Shown: positions 17,798 through 48,322 of the stretch, in pieces
Layout: every line of letters starts with the position of its first letter
Position numbering within the stretch: position 1 is the first letter of the stretch
NCBI GenBank assembly: GCA_943354475.1
Contig: CALRBT010000003.1
Coordinates: forward strand, 1,208 to 65,207
Source of the DNA: Parcubacteria group bacterium
GTDB lineage: Bacteria > Patescibacteriota > Minisyncoccia > Phycocordibacterales > CALRBT01
Direction: 5' to 3'
DNA: 64,000 bases
Translations under genes and position numbers: made by a program
The notes under the pieces: generated by a model
Databases searched by the model: none
The model's input: the letters and a program-made list of their open reading frames with translations, nothing else
Told to the model about the DNA's origin: nothing

Positions 17798-17840
17798 TTA
17801 GACACTATAACGCAAAAAACGTTTTTATTCTTTGATTGTT

Positions 17841-18112
17841 GGGGATAAGGGAACGACACGTTTTTTTCAAAACGTGTCGCGACACTTATCCTCTTGAGGA
17901 TAAGGAGTGTGCCTTACCCTTTTGGTCTGGGTTCGGTAAGGTAAGGGAGCGTAGCGGACACTTGTGTCGCATAGCAAGACTAACGAAGCGAACACTTGAG
18001 GGTACACTCATACCCTCGAGTATATGTCCTGTGGGTATAAGGGAGAACTATGTTTTTCTAAAACATAGTTCGAACACTTATACTCTTGAGTATAAGGAGT
18101 GTTGCCTTACTC
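17841..18112. repeat. Tandem pair of ~80-nt structured repeat units (17841-17919 and 18033-18112) with a related hairpin in the spacer
   Basis: Units align end to end; each has two hairpins (cgacacgttttt..aaaacgtgtcg / aactatgttttt..aaaacatagtt and cacttatcctc-ttga-gaggataagg / cacttatactc-ttga-gagtataagg) with compensatory substitutions; spacer hairpin acacttgagggta-cactca-taccctcgagtat. Confidence 0.6.
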
Positions 18113-18128
18113 TCTGTAGGTATACACG

Positions 18129-29554: not shown

Positions 29555-29667
29555 ACTCTTTTTATTATAAGTTTAATGAACATAGAACACAAGAATTAAT
29601 CAAGTGAGGAGAACGCTTAAGGAACGCAGCAGGACCCAACCTTGCGGTCGGGTCCTCTAACTTAATC

Positions 29668-30354
29668 TTATTCTCGAGTGAAGGTGTACGTACCTCTATT
29701 TGGTGTATAACGTTCCACCCGACATTCTAGGTGTTTTAACCCAGGGATGCCATCTACAGCCGCCAACCCCAAATCATTTACCAGCTCCTGATCCAGTCGT
29801 TGTAAATACCACGGATAGTCAGGTAATTTAACCAGAATGCTAACATTCTCCCCAAGACCAGATACGGTCAAATCGGCAGAAAGATGGAATGTCACACTCT
29901 TTTGATTCCAAATTCCAAGTTCAGATGATCTATTTATAGCAACGACCATTTTTTCAACAAATCGTTCACAGTACTGAATGTTCCATCGTGGCAACCCATG
30001 CACAACTACCCTTGGTCGCAAAACACGAGTACGTCTGATTAGTATATCCCCCTCCTGATCATCATAACTGACAACTCCCGCTTCTCGCAGATGAGCGAGA
30101 GATTCAAGAAGACTACCCATAATCCCAATCGACCCATTTAATACATTGAGAGATGTCACTCCCCCTTCTATCGCGGGAAGATGTTGTATGAGTGTCGTTA
30201 TGCGGCGGACTTCTCCGACGTCCATCTCGGTTATGCGGCGAACTTCTCCGTGGTCTTCCATTTTGTTGGTCCCTATCTTGAGTGACTCCCAGTGAGTCAC
30301 TATATGTTGTACTAAAGCCAAAAACAAAATACATTCTTTACATAGAAATGTCAA
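29668..30354 (-). CDS. Hypothetical protein (228 aa) with N-terminal tandem 11-aa repeat (GEVRRIT x2); true start may be the internal ATG (MEDHGEV...)
   Basis: Intact ORF, GC-enriched; 33-nt tandem DNA repeat and 8-bp palindrome (agtgactc-cca-gagtcact) at the 5' end; hairpin ggacccaacc-ttgc-ggtcgggtcc ~25 nt past the stop. Confidence 0.4.
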   Translation of the reverse strand: MTFLCKECILFLALVQHIVTHWESLKIGTNKMEDHGEVRRITEMDVGEVRRITTLIQHLPAIEGGVTSLNVLNGSIGIMGSLLESLAHLREAGVVSYDDQEGDILIRRTRVLRPRVVVHGLPRWNIQYCERFVEKMVVAINRSSELGIWNQKSVTFHLSADLTVSGLGENVSILVKLPDYPWYLQRLDQELVNDLGLAAVDGIPGLKHLECRVERYTPNRGTYTFTRE

Positions 30355-30355
30355 T

Positions 30356-30397
30356 GATACCCGCGATTATTTTTCTAGAAAAATAATCGCGGGTATC
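30356..30397. promoter_or_regulatory. Perfect 20+20-bp inverted repeat with 2-bp centre (gatacccgcgattatttttc-ta-gaaaaataatcgcgggtatc)
   Basis: Lies between alaS stop (30410) and start of the 29668-30354 gene; could be an alaS terminator (AT-rich apex) and/or a dimeric-regulator operator; TTGACA-17-TATTTT promoter-like sequence on minus strand immediately downstream. Confidence 0.5.
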
Positions 30398-30409
30398 GAA
30401 CACAGAGAC

Positions 30410-32371
30410 CTATTCGAGCACTGCTTTAATTCTCCTGATTCCTGCGGCTACCGCCTCTTCTTTTTGGATTTTAAAGTGTCCGAGTTCGTTCGTGTTGCCA
30501 ACATGTGGACCGCCACAGAATTCAAGTGAAAATGGGTGAGCAATAGGCCCTACCGAATAGACCGAGACGCGCTCTGGATACTTCGCGTTAAACTCATGTT
30601 CAGCGCCCAACTTCTCCGCTTCTTCAAGCGCCATCTCGGTGCGAACCACCTCAATCCCTGCTTTTATTTTTTCATTAACAATACCTTCAACCTGCTTCTT
30701 TTGATCTTCAGTCATCTTTGACCCATAATTGAAGTCGATGCGTAAACGCTCTTGAGTAATATTTGATCCACGCTGATGTACCTCAGGCCCGAGCACCATC
30801 TGAAGTGCCTTGAGAAGCAAATGGTGCGCGGTGTGGAGACGTGTCGTCTTCTCTGTCGTATCAGCAAGACCACCTTTGAACTTCTTTTCGGAGCCCGCGC
30901 GTGAAAGCGCACGATGGTCGTCCATTGCTACCCTAAATCCTTCTTCGTCAATCGTCATCCCCTCTTCGCCTGCAATTTCCAGTGTTAATTCAAAAGGAAA
31001 ACCGAAGGTTTGATAAAGTAACGCTACATCAGCACCACTTAGAGACTTGCCCTTTAATTTGTTAAATTCTTTGAGTCCTCGTTCGAGAGTCATGCGGAAA
31101 CGTTTTTCTTCCTGTTCAATTTCGTTAATGATGGTGTCAGATTGCGTAATCAATTCTGGGTAAGCTCCTTTGTATTTTTGGATGAAAGCCTCGGCAATAG
31201 CCCCGAGAATGTTTCTCTCATCAATTGGCTTATGCTTATGACTAATAGTGTCAGCAAATCGAACCGAGCGACGAATCAAACGCCTGAGTACATAACCTTG
31301 ATCAGTGTTTGACGGGGTTACCCCATCTGAAATGAGGAATACTGCCGCCCGCATATGATCGAGAATGACACGGAAAGCTTTGGTCTGTTTTTCGTTTGCT
31401 CCATACTTTGAACCTGACTCTTCTTCGAGAACAGCAAGTGCACTGTCGAAAAGATCTATGTGAAAGATGTCAGGATTATTGCGAGCTGCCATCTCAAGAC
31501 GCTCCAATCCTCCACCAAAATCAACATTTGGTTTTGGAAGCTTTTCAAAGCCACTGGCCGTCTTTACATATTCCATAAAGACATTGTTCCCAATCTCAAC
31601 AAAACGTCCACAGTCACAATTCACATGACAAGGTTCATCCTTCCACTGCGATTTCTCGTGGAGTTCACGTTCAATACCAAAATCCCAAAACATTTCCGTA
31701 TCTGGCCCACCAGGCTCACCCTCTGGCATATTACCCGGCACACCAACTCGCGACCACCAGTTTTTCTTTTCATTGTAATAAAAGATTCGAGCTCCCTGCA
31801 TACCATTCTCTTCAGGAAAATCAGCGATCTCTGCACCAATCCCTTTTCCAGAAAATAGCTCCTGCCACTTTTCTGCCGAGAAAGTGTCACGTGGAATTTC
31901 CAAATCATCGTTACCTCTAAAACAGGTAACGTAAAGATTATTTGGATCAAGTCCCACTTCCTTCGTCAAAAACTCAAACATCCAAGAAATCTGCTCAGCT
32001 TTGAAGTAATCACCAAATGACCAGTTGCCGAGCATCTCAAAGAATGTGGTGTGGCGATTGTCCCCCACCTCTTCAATATCCTGTGAGCGAAATGATTTCT
32101 GTGAGTCGGTGACTCTCTTTCCAAGCGGGTGGGGGGTGCCGAGAAAATACTGGAGCATTGGTTGCATCCCAGATCCGGTAAAGAGTGTCGTGGGATCATT
32201 CTCAGGAACCAGTGGTGCCGAAGGAACAATGACATGCCCCTGCTTTTCAAAAAAATCTAGATATTTCTTACGTATTTCCCCTGCTTTCATAGTAAAGACT
32301 ATTCTAGCACCTCTTTCTAATTTTTTGAAGAAAGACCCTGTGTATGATAACGTGGCTGTATCCGGCGACAC
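30410..32371 (-). CDS. alaS: Alanyl-tRNA synthetase, C-terminally truncated form (catalytic + tRNA-recognition + editing domains; no C-Ala domain)
   Basis: Class II AlaRS N-terminus (FTGSGMQPMLQYFLG), editing-domain HxxxH (HTAHHLL) and CxxxH (CGGPHV) motifs; 653 aa versus ~870 aa canonical. Confidence 0.9.
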   Translation of the reverse strand: MSPDTATLSYTGSFFKKLERGARIVFTMKAGEIRKKYLDFFEKQGHVIVPSAPLVPENDPTTLFTGSGMQPMLQYFLGTPHPLGKRVTDSQKSFRSQDIEEVGDNRHTTFFEMLGNWSFGDYFKAEQISWMFEFLTKEVGLDPNNLYVTCFRGNDDLEIPRDTFSAEKWQELFSGKGIGAEIADFPEENGMQGARIFYYNEKKNWWSRVGVPGNMPEGEPGGPDTEMFWDFGIERELHEKSQWKDEPCHVNCDCGRFVEIGNNVFMEYVKTASGFEKLPKPNVDFGGGLERLEMAARNNPDIFHIDLFDSALAVLEEESGSKYGANEKQTKAFRVILDHMRAAVFLISDGVTPSNTDQGYVLRRLIRRSVRFADTISHKHKPIDERNILGAIAEAFIQKYKGAYPELITQSDTIINEIEQEEKRFRMTLERGLKEFNKLKGKSLSGADVALLYQTFGFPFELTLEIAGEEGMTIDEEGFRVAMDDHRALSRAGSEKKFKGGLADTTEKTTRLHTAHHLLLKALQMVLGPEVHQRGSNITQERLRIDFNYGSKMTEDQKKQVEGIVNEKIKAGIEVVRTEMALEEAEKLGAEHEFNAKYPERVSVYSVGPIAHPFSLEFCGGPHVGNTNELGHFKIQKEEAVAAGIRRIKAVLE

Positions 32372-32399
32372 GAAACTTGTTCTAATCTAGAGGTGCATT

Positions 32400-32720
32400 G
32401 GAGTGAGAACTCTGGGTTACCCCTTATATGCTATCATGGCTTCTTTACAGCCAAAAAGCTAACGGGGAATATACGGAGCACCCACACAAGTTTCGTATTG
32501 GTAGAAGGGCGATTCACGAACGACTTTCGTGGTCGGCTACCCATTAGTTGAAAAGATGAGGAGGAGTTTGGAGATAGAAAGACCGTCTATTTCTGAGCCC
32601 TTGCACACCGGATGCACGAGCGGATCTACTCCGCCAACATACTACCGGCCACGCGCAATGCGTGAAGCGGTGACACGAGGTCTTATAGCCCCGAGTCACC
32701 GCTTTTCTACTGCCTTATTT
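32400..32720 (+). ncRNA. Candidate structured ncRNA of unassigned class (~300-350 nt, GC-rich) ending in a strong intrinsic terminator
   Basis: Plus-strand region between two minus-strand genes; multiple helices (ggtag..ctacc, cacgaa-cgact-ttcgtg, ggct-tctttac-agcc); 5' cgtggc.. can pair with 3' ..gccacg; terminator aagcggtgac-(20 nt)-gtcaccgctt + TTTTCTACTGCCTTATTTTTCTTATTTTTTC at ~32665-32720; TGTG-TATGAT extended -10-like at ~32343-32351. Confidence 0.4.
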
Positions 32721-33079
32721 TTCTTATTTTTTCTTACCTTCTTAACTCTCTCTTTTTTAGTCTTCGAATTTAGATCAAAGCCTACCATTACCGCTACAAT
32801 CTCAATTGCCCGAGGGTAACTCACCTGCTCAAATTGCATAATAAAAGCAAATAATCCTTCCCCGCTATTATTACAGCAATGACAGCACCAAAATTCTCGA
32901 TCTGCACAAACAGTAAAAGATGGGTGTTTCTCAGGATGGAACGGGCACAAACCAACGTACTCTTTTGGAATCCCGTCTTTTCCCTTTCTGATTCCACGAA
33001 GTCCAACATACTGACCAATGATCAATTGTATTGGTGCAACTTCTCGAAGCTCATCCATGGTTCTTTGTGAATAGCGCAC
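32696..33079 (-). CDS. Stand-alone CHC2 (DnaG-type) zinc-finger protein with basic C-terminal tail
   Basis: GLCPFHPEKHPSFTV CHC2 zinc-finger signature plus additional CCHCC cluster; 127 aa, no TOPRIM/primase catalytic domain. Confidence 0.65.
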   Translation of the reverse strand: MRYSQRTMDELREVAPIQLIIGQYVGLRGIRKGKDGIPKEYVGLCPFHPEKHPSFTVCADREFWCCHCCNNSGEGLFAFIMQFEQVSYPRAIEIVAVMVGFDLNSKTKKERVKKVRKNKKNKAVEKR

Positions 33080-33168
33080 CCCTCTCTCCTATTCCCTATT
33101 TTTCTAAGGGCAGTATATACAAGCAAATTTTAAAATCAAACAAACCCAAAGATAGTGAACTTGAGTTT

Positions 33169-33915
33169 CTACTTCTTCTTTCCCTCAATCAACGCTTTCA
33201 CTCTATCAAACTCGTCCTGAGTGTTTACTTCAAGCTGATGATACTTACCGATTCCAACCTTAATTCCGTAGCCATTCTCGAGCGCACGTAATTGTTCCAG
33301 TAATTCAATCTTCTCAAGTGGTGTTTGTTTAAGCGTCACATACTTCTGTAGAAAATCAGCACGATAGCCATACAGACCAAGGTGTTTGATATGTTTATTA
33401 AATGGTGTACGTGGGTATGGCATGAGCGATCTGCAGAAGTAAAGCGCCATACCATTTTTATCAGTCACTACTTTAACAAAATTAGGTGATAATCTGTCAG
33501 CGTCATTGATAAATGGAGTCCCGACAGTAGACATCACCAATTTTGAATCCTTGAGGAGTAAATCGATTGTCTTATCAATAGCAGCCGGAGGAATGAGTGG
33601 TTCGTCACCTTGTAAATTAATAACAATATCTGGTTTGAACGCTTTAAAGCGTTTGGCAACATAAGCCGTCCTGTCACTTCCACATTTAATTGTACTTGGT
33701 GACATCATTGCGGTACCTCCAAATTTTGTGACCGCCTCCATAATTTCTTTTGAGTCTGTCGCAACCACTACTGCATCAGGAAGTTTCGCCTTCATTGCTT
33801 GTTTCCAGGTGTAATAAATTAGTGGCTTACCATCAATTGACTTCAACATCTTCAGTGGCAAACGAGTTGAACCAAGTCGTGCTGGGATAACACAGAGTAC
33901 TTTCTTCTTTGACAT
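33169..33915 (-). CDS. kdsB: 3-deoxy-manno-octulosonate cytidylyltransferase (CMP-KDO synthetase) family
   Basis: VIPARLGSTRLPLK, LQGDEPLIP, ALYFCRS, HLGLYGYRADFL, PLEKIELLEQLRAL blocks align with E. coli KdsB. Confidence 0.8.
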   Translation of the reverse strand: MSKKKVLCVIPARLGSTRLPLKMLKSIDGKPLIYYTWKQAMKAKLPDAVVVATDSKEIMEAVTKFGGTAMMSPSTIKCGSDRTAYVAKRFKAFKPDIVINLQGDEPLIPPAAIDKTIDLLLKDSKLVMSTVGTPFINDADRLSPNFVKVVTDKNGMALYFCRSLMPYPRTPFNKHIKHLGLYGYRADFLQKYVTLKQTPLEKIELLEQLRALENGYGIKVGIGKYHQLEVNTQDEFDRVKALIEGKKK

Positions 33916-33924
33916 ACAGCTAAT

Positions 33925-34131
33925 TTAGAAAAATGGTAATCGAATAATATAACCAAGAAGCACCGATACAATACCAATAATCACCAGAAACTTCTCTTTC
34001 TTCATTGCACCGATAACCTTTGCGTCAATGGTGCGCTCGCGAGCAATACGGGCATGTACATTTAAAACTACGATTGCAATGAAAACGTTACCGAGAACAT
34101 CGAGTGTTGTGCCGATTAATTCAGTATTCAT
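33925..34131 (-). CDS. Small hydrophobic protein (68 aa)
   Basis: Two TM helices; weak support. Confidence 0.3.
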   Translation of the reverse strand: MNTELIGTTLDVLGNVFIAIVVLNVHARIARERTIDAKVIGAMKKEKFLVIIGIVSVLLGYIIRLPFF

Positions 34132-34206
34132 ATGTACTAGATTATACCTTATTTTGTTTTTCCACTAAATGACGCAATTGGGGCGCCCGTATCCTCGGGC
34201 GCCCCA

Positions 34207-34671
34207 CTATACCAACTTAAATTCTTGAAGTTTTTCCTTGTGCGATGGGAGAAAATCAATGCCAGCAAAAAGTCTCCTTAAGCCATCAACGGTGAAGTAT
34301 TGTGGATTCTCTCCATCACGTCCAGGTCCCATATTAGATAGATCTGACATGAAAACATTGCAGGTAAAAAGACAAACCCAATGCCTTTGATCTTTATCCA
34401 TCAACCACTTTTCAATATAAGATACTTGTACGTGCGTCACTCTGATACGTGCTTCCTCATACAGTTCTCTAATCGCGCTTTCCTTTGGAGTTTTATCCCC
34501 TACCTCTTTATGCCCGCCTGGAAGTTTCCATTTTGAATTTTCTCCAAATTTTCTATCAATAACGAAAACGTAACCGAGTAATCTTTTTACCTCCGCCCTT
34601 GAGTAAACTCTGACAAGAATTAAAGAAGCCCAGTCTTCAGCACCGTCGAAACCAAATTCTTCAAGATACAT
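34207..34671 (-). CDS. NUDIX hydrolase
   Basis: Nudix box GGHKEVGDKTPKESAIRELYEEARI (GX5EX7REUXEEXGU). Confidence 0.8.
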   Translation of the reverse strand: MYLEEFGFDGAEDWASLILVRVYSRAEVKRLLGYVFVIDRKFGENSKWKLPGGHKEVGDKTPKESAIRELYEEARIRVTHVQVSYIEKWLMDKDQRHWVCLFTCNVFMSDLSNMGPGRDGENPQYFTVDGLRRLFAGIDFLPSHKEKLQEFKLV

Positions 34672-34755
34672 TGCACCCCCACTAATTTGTACATTACAAA
34701 AATTCTCAAGAATTTATAGCACAAAATTAACAAAAATCAAATAGTAAGTAGGCAC

Positions 34756-35394
34756 CTATTTTACAGAAAATCTCGATACAAAAAGAAAGGTTGTGATATT
34801 TTGCTTATTATCTTGAAGAGCCTTATCTACAATCTGAAGGTTGGGGTAAAGATCTGCACAAACCTTAGAGGCTATGACCGCCACTGAATCTGAAAGTTTA
34901 CCATCAGCAAGCGCCTTCGCTGCCGTTGCTTGATCAACCAGAATCCCATCTCCTGAAACCTTCATCTGATTAGGGTATTTTCGCTCTAGAGTCTTCATAC
35001 ACTGCACGAGTGCTTGAGGGTGGGACATTATCGTTTTTACGTTTGAAACAGATACTCCCTTACGAACCAAAAGCATATGGTTCACAGGAATTCTCACTTC
35101 ATCAATAATTTTACAGTTGAACTCCGAAAGTGCATTGATTGATTCCTTAACCATCCCACCAATTGAATTCTGAATGGCAAAAAGTCCACGATCAATTTTT
35201 TTCTTTGCAAGTGCATCTAAAACTTTCCTTGTGGTATACAAGTATTTTATTTTGTAATGGGTAATACTGTGCGAGAGAACATAACTCCGCAAAGCCTCTT
35301 CATTAAAACTTCCAGGCCCCCCTTGAATTCCAATGGTGAGTGTCTTTGTAACTCGAGCATTTATTTTTCTTTTTACTGTAGTCTTTTTTTTCAT
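34756..35394 (-). CDS. pheA: Prephenate dehydratase catalytic (PDT) domain protein lacking ACT domain
   Basis: PDT blocks incl. ...SHPQALVQCMKTL... and NITTFLFVSR (cf. NHTRF motif); 212 aa. Confidence 0.65.
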   Translation of the reverse strand: MKKKTTVKRKINARVTKTLTIGIQGGPGSFNEEALRSYVLSHSITHYKIKYLYTTRKVLDALAKKKIDRGLFAIQNSIGGMVKESINALSEFNCKIIDEVRIPVNHMLLVRKGVSVSNVKTIMSHPQALVQCMKTLERKYPNQMKVSGDGILVDQATAAKALADGKLSDSVAVIASKVCADLYPNLQIVDKALQDNKQNITTFLFVSRFSVK

Positions 35395-35409
35395 ACTATA
35401 ATGCTGTTA

Positions 35410-41429: not shown

Positions 41430-41431
41430 TA

Positions 41432-41554
41432 GGGGTTAGGTTGTAGGAATTAGCTTATAGGGGGTTAGGAAATAACCGTGCGCGCCGTAGGCGCGCACGG
41501 TTATTTCCTTTTTTGTGTACCCTAACCCCTATACCCTAGTCTCTAACTCCTACC
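41432..41554. repeat. Intergenic hairpin element, copy 1 (19-bp perfect stem, 3-nt loop, flanked by ctaggggttagg-type arms that are themselves inverted)
   Basis: ggaaataaccgtgcgcgcc-gta-ggcgcgcacggttatttcc (~41468-41508) + TTTTTTGTG; upstream aggggttaggttgtagg...gggggttagg, downstream taccctaacccctataccctag (reverse complement of upstream arm). Confidence 0.6.
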
Positions 41555-46686: not shown

Positions 46687-46902
46687 AAAATATTAAGTAT
46701 GACGAATATATTTGGATGCATTCGACCCAGTAGGTCTTTTTGCTAAAAGAGGCGCGAGTCTCGTGTGTGACCAAGCTGTAGTCTAACTACTGTGCGGGAA
46801 CACGCGAGACGAAGTAACAAGCTTCCAGCATAAATCCGCACGGAAGTCTTTTATAAAAAAGATTTTTAATTGAACAAAAGAGAAATGCGCCGAATATATT
46901 CG

Positions 46903-48192: not shown

Positions 48193-48221
48193 GAGAAAAG
48201 TATAACATAACTAGGGGTTAG

Positions 48222-48322
48222 GTTTTAGGGGGTAGGTTATGAGAGAAACCTCTGTCGCCTATGGCGACAGAGGTTTCTCTTATGACTAAAAGCTAACACC
48301 TAAAAGCTATAACCTTGCTCTC
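48222..48322. repeat. Intergenic hairpin element, copy 2 (18-19-bp stem, 3-nt loop, same ctaggggttagg flank as copy 1)
   Basis: ctaggggttaggttttagggggtaggttat + (g)agagaaacctctgtcgcc-tat-ggcgacagaggtttctct (~48242-48282); stem sequence differs from copy 1 by paired compensatory changes. Confidence 0.6.

What the first reader, a model, noticed from the sequence alone, without database searches (positions are those of the whole stretch)
32358..32720. GC-rich intergenic region with strong plus-strand terminator: candidate structured ncRNA of unknown class
Between the divergent alaS start and the CHC2-finger gene, about 330 nt are clearly more GC-rich than the coding flanks and contain no credible ORF; the 96-aa plus-strand ORF there has implausible composition. 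There are several well-formed helices, a possible closing helix between the 5' end (cgtggc) and 3' end (gccacg), and a canonical intrinsic terminator (10-bp stem aagcggtgac/gtcaccgctt followed by a long U-rich tract) oriented for the plus strand, opposite to both neighbouring genes. An extended -10-like TGTG-TATGAT sits ~50 nt upstream of the GC-rich block. Size and placement are compatible with RNase P RNA, tmRNA, a 6S-like RNA or a lineage-specific RNA, but I could not match any of their universal motifs (no GGUUCGA T-loop, no P4 GUCCGGG/CCCGGCUU pair), so it may be an atypical or undescribed RNA.
Basis: seen in the sequence. Interest (0 to 1): 0.6.

Follow-up and report, generated by a model that had tools for sequence, protein, structure and literature searches.

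The report
Orphan structured GC-rich spacer upstream of alaS
A 405-base non-coding gap in an uncultured Patescibacteria genome folds far better than chance and matches no known RNA or protein family, but its closest relatives lack it, so it is an unverified one-off RNA candidate and not a recognisable housekeeping RNA.

Summary
Window 32291-32695, between the alaS start and the stop of a small DnaG-type zinc-ribbon gene (both on the minus strand), is non-coding. It is GC-enriched (about 51% against 41.5%, 98.7th percentile) and folds much better than shuffles (z about -4 to -5 on plus, -3 to -4.4 on minus).

The suggested identities fail. Rfam 15 gives nothing for RNase P, tmRNA, 6S, SRP or T-box even at E<=10, and default ARAGORN finds nothing. 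All six reading frames are blank against Pfam and 5.8 billion proteins.

The "plus-strand terminator" hairpin contains the zinc-ribbon gene's stop codon, and its T-tract is that gene's lysine-rich tail read backwards. The hairpin may therefore be that gene's own or a bidirectional terminator.

No homolog was found. The two closest relatives (AlaRS 85% and 81% identical) show no similarity upstream of alaS, where one has an AT-rich, unstructured 318-nt spacer. About 40 other Patescibacteria have mostly short spacers there. DNA-word scans and single-sequence covariance models also found nothing, so covariation cannot be tested.

Best reading: a lineage-specific structured RNA of unknown function, probably plus-strand. 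A minus-strand element or a remnant of acquired DNA remains possible. Interest is modest.

The parts
32291..32695 (.). 405-nt non-coding spacer between the alaS start codon and the CHC2 stop codon. This is the whole feature.
   Evidence: ORF map and Pfam. No hit in any of six frames. GC and purine content.
32339..32348 (+). TGTG-TATGAT, a -10-like hexamer (5 of 6 matches to TATAAT) with no -35 element. Candidate plus-strand promoter; the inferred start would be near 32355.
   Evidence: Read directly from the sequence. Not called by the consensus promoter scan. Weak evidence.
32351..32365 (+). 5' arms of the two long-range closing helices. CGUGGCU pairs with 32647-32653 and GUAUCCGG pairs with 32608-32615.
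   Evidence: Minimum-free-energy (MFE) folds. Pairing probability is low on plus (0.16-0.35) and high for the equivalent minus-strand helices (0.92-0.93).
32366..32500 (+). 5' domain. It is closed by a perfect 11-bp helix (32370-80/32486-96) and contains hairpin 32383-32419 (uses two G-U pairs) and an arm 32420-32467 with apical hairpin 32437-32453.
   Evidence: helix probabilities 0.84-0.98; 0.43 for the hairpin at 32383-32419. z = -3.7 on plus and -4.6 on minus.
32499..32541 (+). Hairpin GGUAG...CACGAA/UUCGUG...CUACC. Its CACGAA/UUCGUG elements can also pair with the 5' arm of the 11-bp helix (inverted repeat 32369-82/32518-31).
32562..32601 (+). Hairpin with a 13-bp stem containing four G-U pairs. 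It forms only on the plus strand and is preceded by a GAGGAGGAG purine run at 32558-32566.
   Evidence: probability 0.98. Segment 32497-32602 gives z = -2.2 on plus and -0.3 on minus.
32620..32634 (+). Hairpin GCGGA-UCUAC-UCCGC, lying between the 3' arms of the two closing helices.
   Evidence: probability 0.98.
32664..32712 (.). Long hairpin (10-11 bp outer stem 32665-74/32695-704 plus inner pairs) followed on the plus strand by UUUUCU. It contains the CHC2 stop codon (32698-32696). Likely a shared or bidirectional terminator.
   Evidence: -24.8 kcal/mol on plus; -33.8 kcal/mol on minus for a 72-nt segment that also includes the adjacent small hairpin. Comparison with other gene-end hairpins.
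32301..32329 (-). alaS promoter TTCAAA-17-TG-C-TAGAAT, ending 10 nt before the ATG. It lies between the structured block and alaS.
   Evidence: The same TGnTAGAAT / TGCTAGTAT motif lies just upstream of alaS in relatives L067 and L066.
32699..33058 (-). Neighbouring gene: a stand-alone 120-aa DnaG-type CHC2 zinc-binding domain with a Lys-rich tail.
   Evidence: Pfam PF01807 1e-22. TIGR01391 positions 8-111 of 414. The rest of dnaG is absent from the window.
30413..32290 (-). Neighbouring gene: alaS, 626 aa.
   Evidence: Pfam. Homologs cover 100% of its length.

Best explanation
The spacer most likely encodes a lineage-specific (orphan) structured non-coding RNA of about 300-355 nt. It is more likely read from the plus strand, starting just after the TATGAT -10 (about 32355) and ending at the hairpin plus U-run at 32664-32712, which also closes the convergent CHC2 gene.

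It would fold into two multi-hairpin domains (32366-32500 and 32498-32648). It would act as a stand-alone, protein- or RNA-binding small RNA, not as a leader of alaS.

Shown: it is non-coding, GC-enriched, folds far better than chance, belongs to no described family, and lies upstream of the alaS promoter.

Inferred only: that it is transcribed, from which strand, where its ends are, and any function.
For: - Folding z is -4.2 to -4.95 on plus.
- GC is at the 98.7th percentile, and this 405-nt spacer is the longest gap between ORFs of at least 80 aa found in the 64-kb window.
- Long GC-rich intergenic regions in AT-rich genomes are a known enrichment for structured RNAs (abstract of PMC8723152, shown).
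- Plus is the better strand overall: -131.4 against -125.7 kcal/mol for identical coordinates.
- A 13-bp helix with four G-U pairs and a 10-bp helix with two G-U pairs exist only on plus.
- Purine content is 52-54% on plus, whereas the flanking genes are purine-rich on the opposite strand.
- The hairpin with a U-run is oriented for plus.
- No coding signal in any frame.
- The alaS promoter motif is conserved in relatives about 10 nt before the ATG, so the block is not the alaS 5' UTR.
Against: - Only one sequence exists, so there is no covariation test.
- The 81% and 85% AlaRS relatives show no similarity to it upstream of alaS.
- Nothing similar was found in 64 genome loci, JGI metagenomes, viral contigs, phages or plasmids.
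- The promoter is only a -10-like hexamer. A start there would delete the 5' arm of the proposed closing helix.
- The U-run is explained by CHC2 Lys codons, and the hairpin holds the CHC2 stop codon.
- The minus strand gives better-defined closing helices and lower ensemble diversity (58 against 70), and the 5' domain is more stable on minus.
- There are no GNRA or UUCG tetraloops or other recognisable tertiary motifs.
Confidence: 0.4

Rival explanations
1. Remnant or cargo of acquired DNA with no RNA function of its own. The 3.1-kb block 32291-35409 (prephenate dehydratase, NUDIX, a 68-aa ORF, kdsB, the CHC2 zinc-ribbon gene and this spacer) is extra relative to the closest relative with a full locus. 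Stand-alone CHC2 domains elsewhere sit in phage or plasmid replication modules. On this reading the spacer is a leftover of such a module: for example an origin or primase-recognition hairpin region acting at the DNA level, or a decayed element. Its high GC would reflect a foreign source.
For: - The L067 relative has M16-M16-[318 nt AT-rich, z = +2]-alaS with none of these genes. L076 has yet another gene upstream of alaS.
- The CHC2 protein has no homolog above 45% identity in 5.8 billion proteins.
- Its distant homologs lie next to Glyco_hydro_108/Thy1 (phage), AAA_25 or MarR genes.
- It matches PHROG primase families.
- The element is an orphan in every search.
Against: - There are no iterons, terminal inverted repeats, target duplications or second copies in the window.
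- There is no integrase or transposase nearby, and the neighbouring genes are ordinary metabolic genes.
- No pseudogene trace in any frame.
- A 405-nt useless spacer is unexpected in a streamlined genome.
- A folding z near -4 to -5 needs an explanation beyond composition.
Confidence: 0.3
2. A minus-strand RNA element. The structure would be the 3' UTR of the CHC2 mRNA, or an intercistronic spacer of a CHC2-alaS read-through transcript. It would serve as a terminator, stability or processing module, or release a 3'-UTR-derived small RNA whose pyrimidine-rich loop (CUCCAAACUCCUCCUCAUCUUUUC, complement of about 32553-32576) could pair with Shine-Dalgarno sequences.
For: - All flanking genes, and almost every gene in the 64-kb window, are on minus.
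- The hairpin directly follows, and overlaps, the CHC2 stop codon. It is more stable on minus, and gene-end hairpins without U-tracts are common here.
- Minus-strand closing helices have probability 0.92-0.94, ensemble diversity is lower, and the 5' domain gives z = -4.6 on minus.
Against: - Overall MFE and z favour plus. Segment 32497-32602 is essentially unstructured on minus (z = -0.3).
- The purine skew favours plus.
- alaS has its own conserved promoter, and relatives have short, unstructured spacers there.
- No T-box or other leader model matches.
Confidence: 0.2
3. A highly divergent housekeeping RNA (RNase P RNA, tmRNA, 6S or SRP RNA) that current models miss, as reported for some CPR (Candidate Phyla Radiation, the group that includes Patescibacteria) RNase P RNAs.
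For: - The size and multi-helix layout fit.
- CPR RNase P RNAs can fall below default thresholds (PMC8172020, read).
- Superficial resemblances to tmRNA: a closing helix with a hairpin just before its 3' arm, and 5' GGCUGUAUCCGGCGAC compared with the E. coli tmRNA 5' end GGCUGAUUCUGGAUUCGAC (the E. coli sequence recalled from memory, not checked with a tool).
- ARAGORN run at lowered score cut-offs (80%, 70% and 60% of default) calls a tmRNA on minus 32499-32646.
Against: - No Rfam hit for any of these families at E<=10 on 701 nt with lax filters or at E<=5 on the whole window. The diverged CPR RNase P RNAs were still found by lowering the threshold (PMC8172020).
- No GGAAAGUCC or ACAGAAnnCGGCUUA P4 strands.
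- No 7-nt T-loop, no G3:U70 and no encoded CCA. There are 12 nt between the hairpin and the 3' arm.
- The relaxed ARAGORN call is 148 nt with the tag GLSISKLLLIFSTNG, which is not credible.
- A housekeeping RNA should be alignable in the 81-85% relatives, though only their alaS neighbourhoods could be examined.
Confidence: 0.03
4. A small protein-coding gene, such as the 96-aa plus-strand ORF 32529-32819, or a degraded gene fragment such as the remainder of dnaG.
For: - Open frames of 51-96 aa exist.
- An AGGAGG motif precedes a TTG at 32568.
Against: - No Pfam hit.
- No hit in 5.8 billion proteins in any frame.
- The representative search gives only an ankyrin-repeat artefact.
- tblastn with a DnaG catalytic part finds nothing in the window.
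- The ORF runs through the terminator hairpin and 120 nt antisense into CHC2.
- The spacing from the Shine-Dalgarno-like motif to the TTG is only about 3 nt.
- The gene caller on the Logan contig called nothing here.
Confidence: 0.02

Closest known systems
Orphan or candidate structured RNAs found as long GC-rich intergenic regions in AT-rich bacterial genomes (GC-IGR / DIMPL screens; large RNAs such as OLE, GOLLD, ROOL, raiA, HEARO)
   Same: It has the same signature: an unusually long spacer, GC well above the genome mean, strong predicted folding, no ORF and no link to a downstream gene.
   Different: None of those families' Rfam models match. Those classes were accepted because many homologs show covariation, and here there is a single sequence.
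Bacterial RNase P RNA (Rfam RF00010/RF00011), including the diverged CPR forms described in PMC8172020
   Same: The length is about 350 nt, it has a multi-domain fold with long-range closing helices, and it looks like a stand-alone gene.
   Different: There is no model hit at any threshold tried. The universally conserved P4 strands (CR-I, CR-V) are absent, and the helix order does not map onto P1-P4.
tmRNA (RF00023)
   Same: The size is similar, and the topology of an outer helix, an inner helix enclosing the body and a hairpin before the 3' strand is similar. It is next to alaS, whose product charges tmRNA; this adjacency is probably a coincidence.
   Different: There is no tRNA-like domain: no T-loop, a 12-nt gap between the hairpin and the 3' strand, U3-A instead of G3:U70, and no CCA. 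There is no plausible tag reading frame. Default ARAGORN and Rfam are negative.
T-box and other aminoacyl-tRNA synthetase leaders
   Same: On the minus strand the structured RNA lies upstream of an aaRS gene.
   Different: There is no T-box model hit. The alaS promoter sits between the structure and the ATG. About 40 Patescibacteria relatives have short, low-GC spacers upstream of alaS.
Bidirectional intrinsic terminators between convergent transcription units
   Same: A GC-rich hairpin at 32664-32705 has an A-run on one side and a U-run on the other, placed at the end of the CHC2 gene.
   Different: This explains only the last 45 nt or so, not the roughly 300-nt structured body upstream.

Membership tests
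RNase P RNA (bacterial type A/B) | Significant covariance-model match (Rfam RF00010/RF00011) | tested here: not met
   No hit at the gathering score. No hit at E<=10 on 32200-32900 or at E<=5 on the whole window.
RNase P RNA (bacterial type A/B) | Conserved P4 strands: CR-I (GGAAAGUCC-like) near the 5' end and CR-V (ACAGAAnnCGGCUUA-like) near the 3' end | tested here: not met
   Read directly from the sequence. Only loose look-alikes are present (AGGAGGAGUUUGG, GGUCGGCUA), and they occur in the wrong order.
tmRNA | tRNA-like domain: 7-bp acceptor stem with G3:U70, a T-arm with a 7-nt T-loop abutting the acceptor 3' strand, and a 3' (N)CCA | tested here: not met
   The pair at position 3 is U-A. 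The hairpin loop is 5 nt (UCUAC). There are 12 nt between the hairpin and the 3' strand, which is followed by CGCA.
tmRNA | Detection by ARAGORN or Rfam, and a tag reading frame ending in a hydrophobic ...AA-type tail | tested here: not met
   Default ARAGORN finds none and Rfam finds none. Only at lowered ARAGORN score cut-offs (80%, 70% and 60% of default) is a 148-nt minus-strand call made, with tag GLSISKLLLIFSTNG.
6S RNA / SRP RNA | Covariance-model match; a rod with a central bubble (6S) or the helix-8 GNAR motif (SRP) | tested here: not met
   No Rfam hit. The predicted fold is multi-branched.
T-box leader | Stem I with a specifier codon, the T-box sequence and antiterminator, and a position in the 5' UTR of the regulated gene | tested here: not met
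   No RF00230 hit at E<=10. The alaS promoter is downstream of the structure. There is no long leader in relatives.
Functional structured ncRNA (generic) | Folding energy well below that of shuffled controls | tested here: met
   z = -4.2 to -4.95 on plus and -3.2 to -4.4 on minus.
Functional structured ncRNA (generic) | Conservation with compensatory base changes in homologs | tested here: inconclusive
   No homolog was found by blastn or nhmmer in 64+ loci, by covariance-model searches, by phage or plasmid blastn, by viral or metagenome word scans, or by six-frame protein search. The nearest relatives lack it at the syntenic site.
Functional structured ncRNA (generic) | A discrete transcript with defined 5' and 3' ends | not testable with these tools
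   No expression data are available. Only a -10-like hexamer and a hairpin with a U-run were found.
Mobile element remnant (MITE / IS end / integrative element) | Terminal inverted repeats, target duplication, multiple copies, or an adjacent integrase or transposase | tested here: not met
   Single copy in 64 kb. No convincing terminal repeats or duplications. No such genes nearby. Only 64 kb of the genome could be examined.

The most novel reading that the evidence does not exclude
The spacer encodes the first seen member of a new class of large (about 350 nt) structured RNA, restricted to a poorly sampled Patescibacteria lineage. It may work together with the adjacent stand-alone primase zinc-binding domain, with which it was co-acquired.
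Probability: 0.15. Interest if true: 0.55.

Novelty: new member of a known kind. Interest (0 to 1): 0.3.

Why it matters
Patescibacteria have tiny, streamlined genomes and unusual RNA biology, including diverged RNase P RNAs and intron-bearing rRNA and tRNA genes. A real, large, lineage-specific structured RNA there would be worth characterising. With a single sequence, no conservation and no expression data, this is only a candidate. The practical outcomes are these:
- It is not a missed RNase P RNA, tmRNA, 6S RNA, SRP RNA or T-box leader.
- The apparent plus-strand terminator is shared with, and partly explained by, the neighbouring gene.
- The element belongs to a variable 3.1-kb block that the closest relative with a full locus lacks.

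Tried and rejected
1. Rfam 15 at gathering score on the window, at E<=10 on 32200-32900 and at E<=5 on the whole window. Nothing relevant.

2. ARAGORN at default settings found nothing. At lowered score cut-offs (80%, 70% and 60% of default) it gave an implausible 148-nt minus-strand "tmRNA". Rejected: no T-loop, no G:U pair, an absurd tag.

3. Manual tests as an intron-containing tRNA, a group I or group II intron, RNase P P4 strands, and an SRP motif. No fit.

4. Synteny search:
- alaS loci from 64 GTDB species, plus the 85%, 81% and 68% AlaRS relatives.
- blastn and nhmmer found no similarity.
- Upstream spacers in relatives are short and AT-rich.
- The L067 syntenic spacer is unstructured.

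5. CHC2 neighbour as an anchor:
- No close homolog exists.
- Distant homologs were fetched. They sit in a frameshifted dnaG or in phage- or plasmid-like modules, and none is followed by a similar structured spacer.
- A viral-contig search found none.

6. Pseudogene test. tblastn with a DnaG catalytic part, six frames against 5.8 billion proteins and against Pfam, and the 96-aa ORF against 1.84 billion representatives (an ankyrin-repeat artefact). All negative.

7. DNA word scans. Three viral scans gave one chance 18-mer. One metagenome 20-mer scan gave three chance hits in high-GC coding DNA.

8. Phage and plasmid blastn. Nothing.

9. Single-sequence covariance models of the 5' and 3' domains, searched over 52 loci. 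Only self-hits.

10. Similarity to other structured spacers of the window. None.

11. Literature searches for CPR-specific structured RNAs. Only the report of diverged CPR RNase P RNAs was relevant.
Full report
**Context.** The window comes from an uncultured Patescibacteria (CPR) genome.
- The AlaRS encoded at 30413-32290 (minus strand) has its best matches among GTDB species representatives at 63% identity or less. These are MAGs labelled Paceibacter, Uhrbacteria, Magasanikbacteria and similar.
- Nearly all genes in the 64 kb are on the minus strand.
- There are no tRNA genes and no Rfam hit at gathering score anywhere in the window.
- An independent Logan assembly (ERR5863101) is 100% identical over 8.7 kb spanning the feature. 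The sequence is therefore not an assembly artefact.

**Check of the observation.**
- The spacer runs from the base after the alaS ATG (32290) to the CHC2 stop codon (TGA, 32698-32696). That is 405 nt.
- GC is 47.9% over the spacer and 51.2% over 32400-32700. The window mean is 41.5% (sd 4.1 for 300-nt windows), which puts the region at the 98.7th percentile.
- The short ORFs inside have no Pfam hits. A concatenated six-frame translation has no hit at E<=10 among 5.8 billion proteins or in Pfam.
- The 96-aa ORF hits only ankyrin-repeat proteins among 1.84 billion representatives. This comes from a 21-residue chance match summed over repeats.
- Folding energy is far below dinucleotide shuffles: z = -4.2 for 32340-32720 plus, -4.95 for 32345-32710 and -4.27 for 32351-32653.
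- In a scan of all 360-nt windows, this spacer ranks about 20th of 2122 after correcting for composition. The higher ranks are mostly long palindromic gene-end hairpins and one repeat-containing spacer.

**What it is not.**
- Rfam at E<=10 on 701 nt, where filters are laxest, returns only a meaningless 14-nt CRISPR-repeat match. At E<=5 on the whole window nothing relevant appears.
- CPR RNase P RNAs are known to be diverged and can fall below default cut-offs, but they were still recovered by lowering the threshold (PMC8172020). Here there is no sub-threshold hit at all, and the P4 strands are absent.
- tmRNA is excluded. The pair at position 3 is U-A, not G:U. The hairpin before the 3' strand has a 5-nt loop and sits 12 nt from the closing helix. 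No CCA is encoded. Default ARAGORN is negative, and the relaxed call is a 148-nt minus-strand artefact with the tag GLSISKLLLIFSTNG.
- A T-box or other alaS leader is unlikely for three reasons. No model matches. The alaS promoter (TTCAAA-17-TG-C-TAGAAT, 32329-32301) lies between the structure and the ATG, and recurs as TGTTAGAAT or TGCTAGTAT just upstream of alaS in relatives. About 40 Patescibacteria relatives have mostly spacers under 100 nt with low GC upstream of alaS.
- A dnaG remnant is excluded. tblastn with a DnaG catalytic region finds nothing, and no frame hits any family.

For the plus strand:
- MFE (minimum free energy) is better for identical coordinates (-131.4 against -125.7 kcal/mol).
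- A 13-bp helix with four G-U pairs (32566-78/32586-98) and a 10-bp helix with two G-U pairs exist only on plus.
- Segment 32497-32602 gives z = -2.2 on plus and -0.3 on minus.
- Purine content is 52-54% on plus, while the flanking genes are purine-rich on the other strand.
- A U-run follows the hairpin on plus.

Against the plus strand:
- The hairpin's minus-strand 5' arm contains the last CHC2 codons and its stop codon.
- The T-run is the reverse complement of the Lys codons of the CHC2 tail KKVRKNKKNKAVEKR.
- Several gene-end hairpins in this genome are long palindromes without U-tracts, for example after alaS. The hairpin is therefore at least also the CHC2 terminator.
- The minus strand gives better-defined closing helices (probability 0.92-0.94 against 0.16-0.35), lower ensemble diversity (58 against 70) and a more stable 5' domain.
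- The plus-strand promoter is only a TATGAT hexamer with no -35 element, and the scan did not call it. A start there would remove most of the 5' arm of the cgtggc/gccacg helix.

**Conservation.**
- The closest AlaRS relatives in 5.8 billion proteins are 85% and 81% identical, and the next are 68% or below.
- The 81% relative (L067, a 71-kb JGI contig) shares the order HD / M16 / M16 / alaS. It has only a 318-nt, 33%-GC spacer in place of the window's 3.1-kb block (prephenate dehydratase, NUDIX, a 68-aa ORF, kdsB, CHC2 and the spacer). That spacer has no similarity to the feature and folds worse than shuffles (z = +2).
- The 85% relative's contig ends 140 nt upstream of alaS and shows no similarity either.
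- The CHC2 protein has no homolog above 45% identity anywhere. It is only the N-terminal zinc-binding domain of DnaG (TIGR01391 positions 8-111 of 414).
- Its distant stand-alone homologs lie in phage- or plasmid-like replication modules. None is followed by a comparable spacer.
- The following found no homolog: blastn and nhmmer against all fetched loci, blastn against phage and plasmid collections, 18-20-mer scans of viral and JGI metagenome contigs (only chance hits), and two single-sequence covariance models.

Covariation therefore cannot be assessed.

**Interpretation.** A 405-nt, GC-enriched, strongly folding, non-coding spacer in a streamlined genome is the classic signature of a structured RNA (abstract of PMC8723152, shown). 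I take that as the most likely explanation, with confidence 0.4 for a stand-alone plus-strand RNA. A further 0.2 goes to a minus-strand 3'-UTR or intercistronic element.

Three facts keep a non-functional or DNA-level remnant of acquired DNA a serious rival (0.3). The spacer is an orphan. It sits in a block the closest relative with a full locus lacks. It lies next to a primase-fragment-like gene whose relatives live on mobile elements. Divergent housekeeping RNA and protein-coding readings are each at 0.03 or below.

**Novelty and interest.** If real, this is a new, single-member structured RNA candidate, of a kind that GC-rich-spacer screens regularly yield. Without homologs or expression data a specialist would not be surprised, and could not act on it beyond the experiments listed. 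Interest is 0.3.

Noticed in passing
window 17798-18128: This 331-nt spacer has the strongest folding signal in the window (residual z -4.9 and -4.0). It contains two direct-repeat units of about 85 nt (about 17843-17925 and 18033-18115). Each is built of nested palindromes (GGGATAAGGGAACGACACG...CGTGTCGCGACACTTATCCTCTTGAGGATAAGGAGTGT). There is no Rfam hit.
   Followed up: partly
window 41430-41554 and 48193-48322: Perfect palindromes of about 40 nt follow minus-strand genes. They are flanked by a shared 18-nt motif (CCTAACCCCTA-containing; 94% identical between the two sites). This suggests a REP-like repeated terminator element.
   Followed up: partly
window 46687-46902: A 216-nt spacer closed by a 15-bp inverted repeat (TATGACGAATATATT / AATATATTCGTCATA) has strong internal structure (residual z about -3.9). 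There is no Rfam hit. It is another ncRNA or element candidate.
   Followed up: no
window 32291-35409 compared with L067 4683-5000: The block of prephenate dehydratase, NUDIX, a 68-aa ORF, kdsB, CHC2 and the spacer is absent from the 81%-AlaRS relative, which goes straight from the second M16 peptidase gene to alaS. The region upstream of alaS is a variable site in this lineage (L076 has EamA and peptidase M3 there).
   Followed up: partly
window 32699-33058: This is a stand-alone 120-aa DnaG zinc-binding domain with a Lys-rich tail. The rest of dnaG is not in the 64 kb. No homolog exceeds 45% identity in 5.8 billion proteins. Distant stand-alone homologs sit beside AAA_25, MarR or phage genes.
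   Followed up: partly
L077 3001-4847: In an ENA contig, dnaG appears as a 118-aa zinc-ribbon ORF plus a 411-aa remainder. The 255-nt 'gap' between them is DnaG coding sequence in another frame, which means a frameshift (real or a sequencing error) and not a split gene.
   Followed up: partly
window 32288-32329; L066, L067 upstream of alaS: alaS has an extended -10 (TGnTAGAAT or TGCTAGTAT) ending about 10 nt before the ATG, with no Shine-Dalgarno motif at normal spacing. The mRNA is therefore probably leaderless or nearly so. AlaRS here is 626 aa, against about 870 aa for typical bacterial AlaRS (from general knowledge), and its closest homologs are 612-670 aa.
   Followed up: partly
window 29555-30409: The 855-nt stretch downstream of alaS holds a 228-aa TTG-start ORF (29668-30354). 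It has no Pfam, NCBIfam or PHROG hit and no tblastn match in relatives, which have only a 320-365-nt gap there. It may be an orphan gene or non-coding. The alaS terminator is a perfect 17-bp-stem palindrome at 30365-30405 without a U-tract.
   Followed up: partly
window 1-64000: There is no tRNA, rRNA or any Rfam family at gathering score in 64 kb. Almost all genes are on the minus strand.
   Followed up: yes
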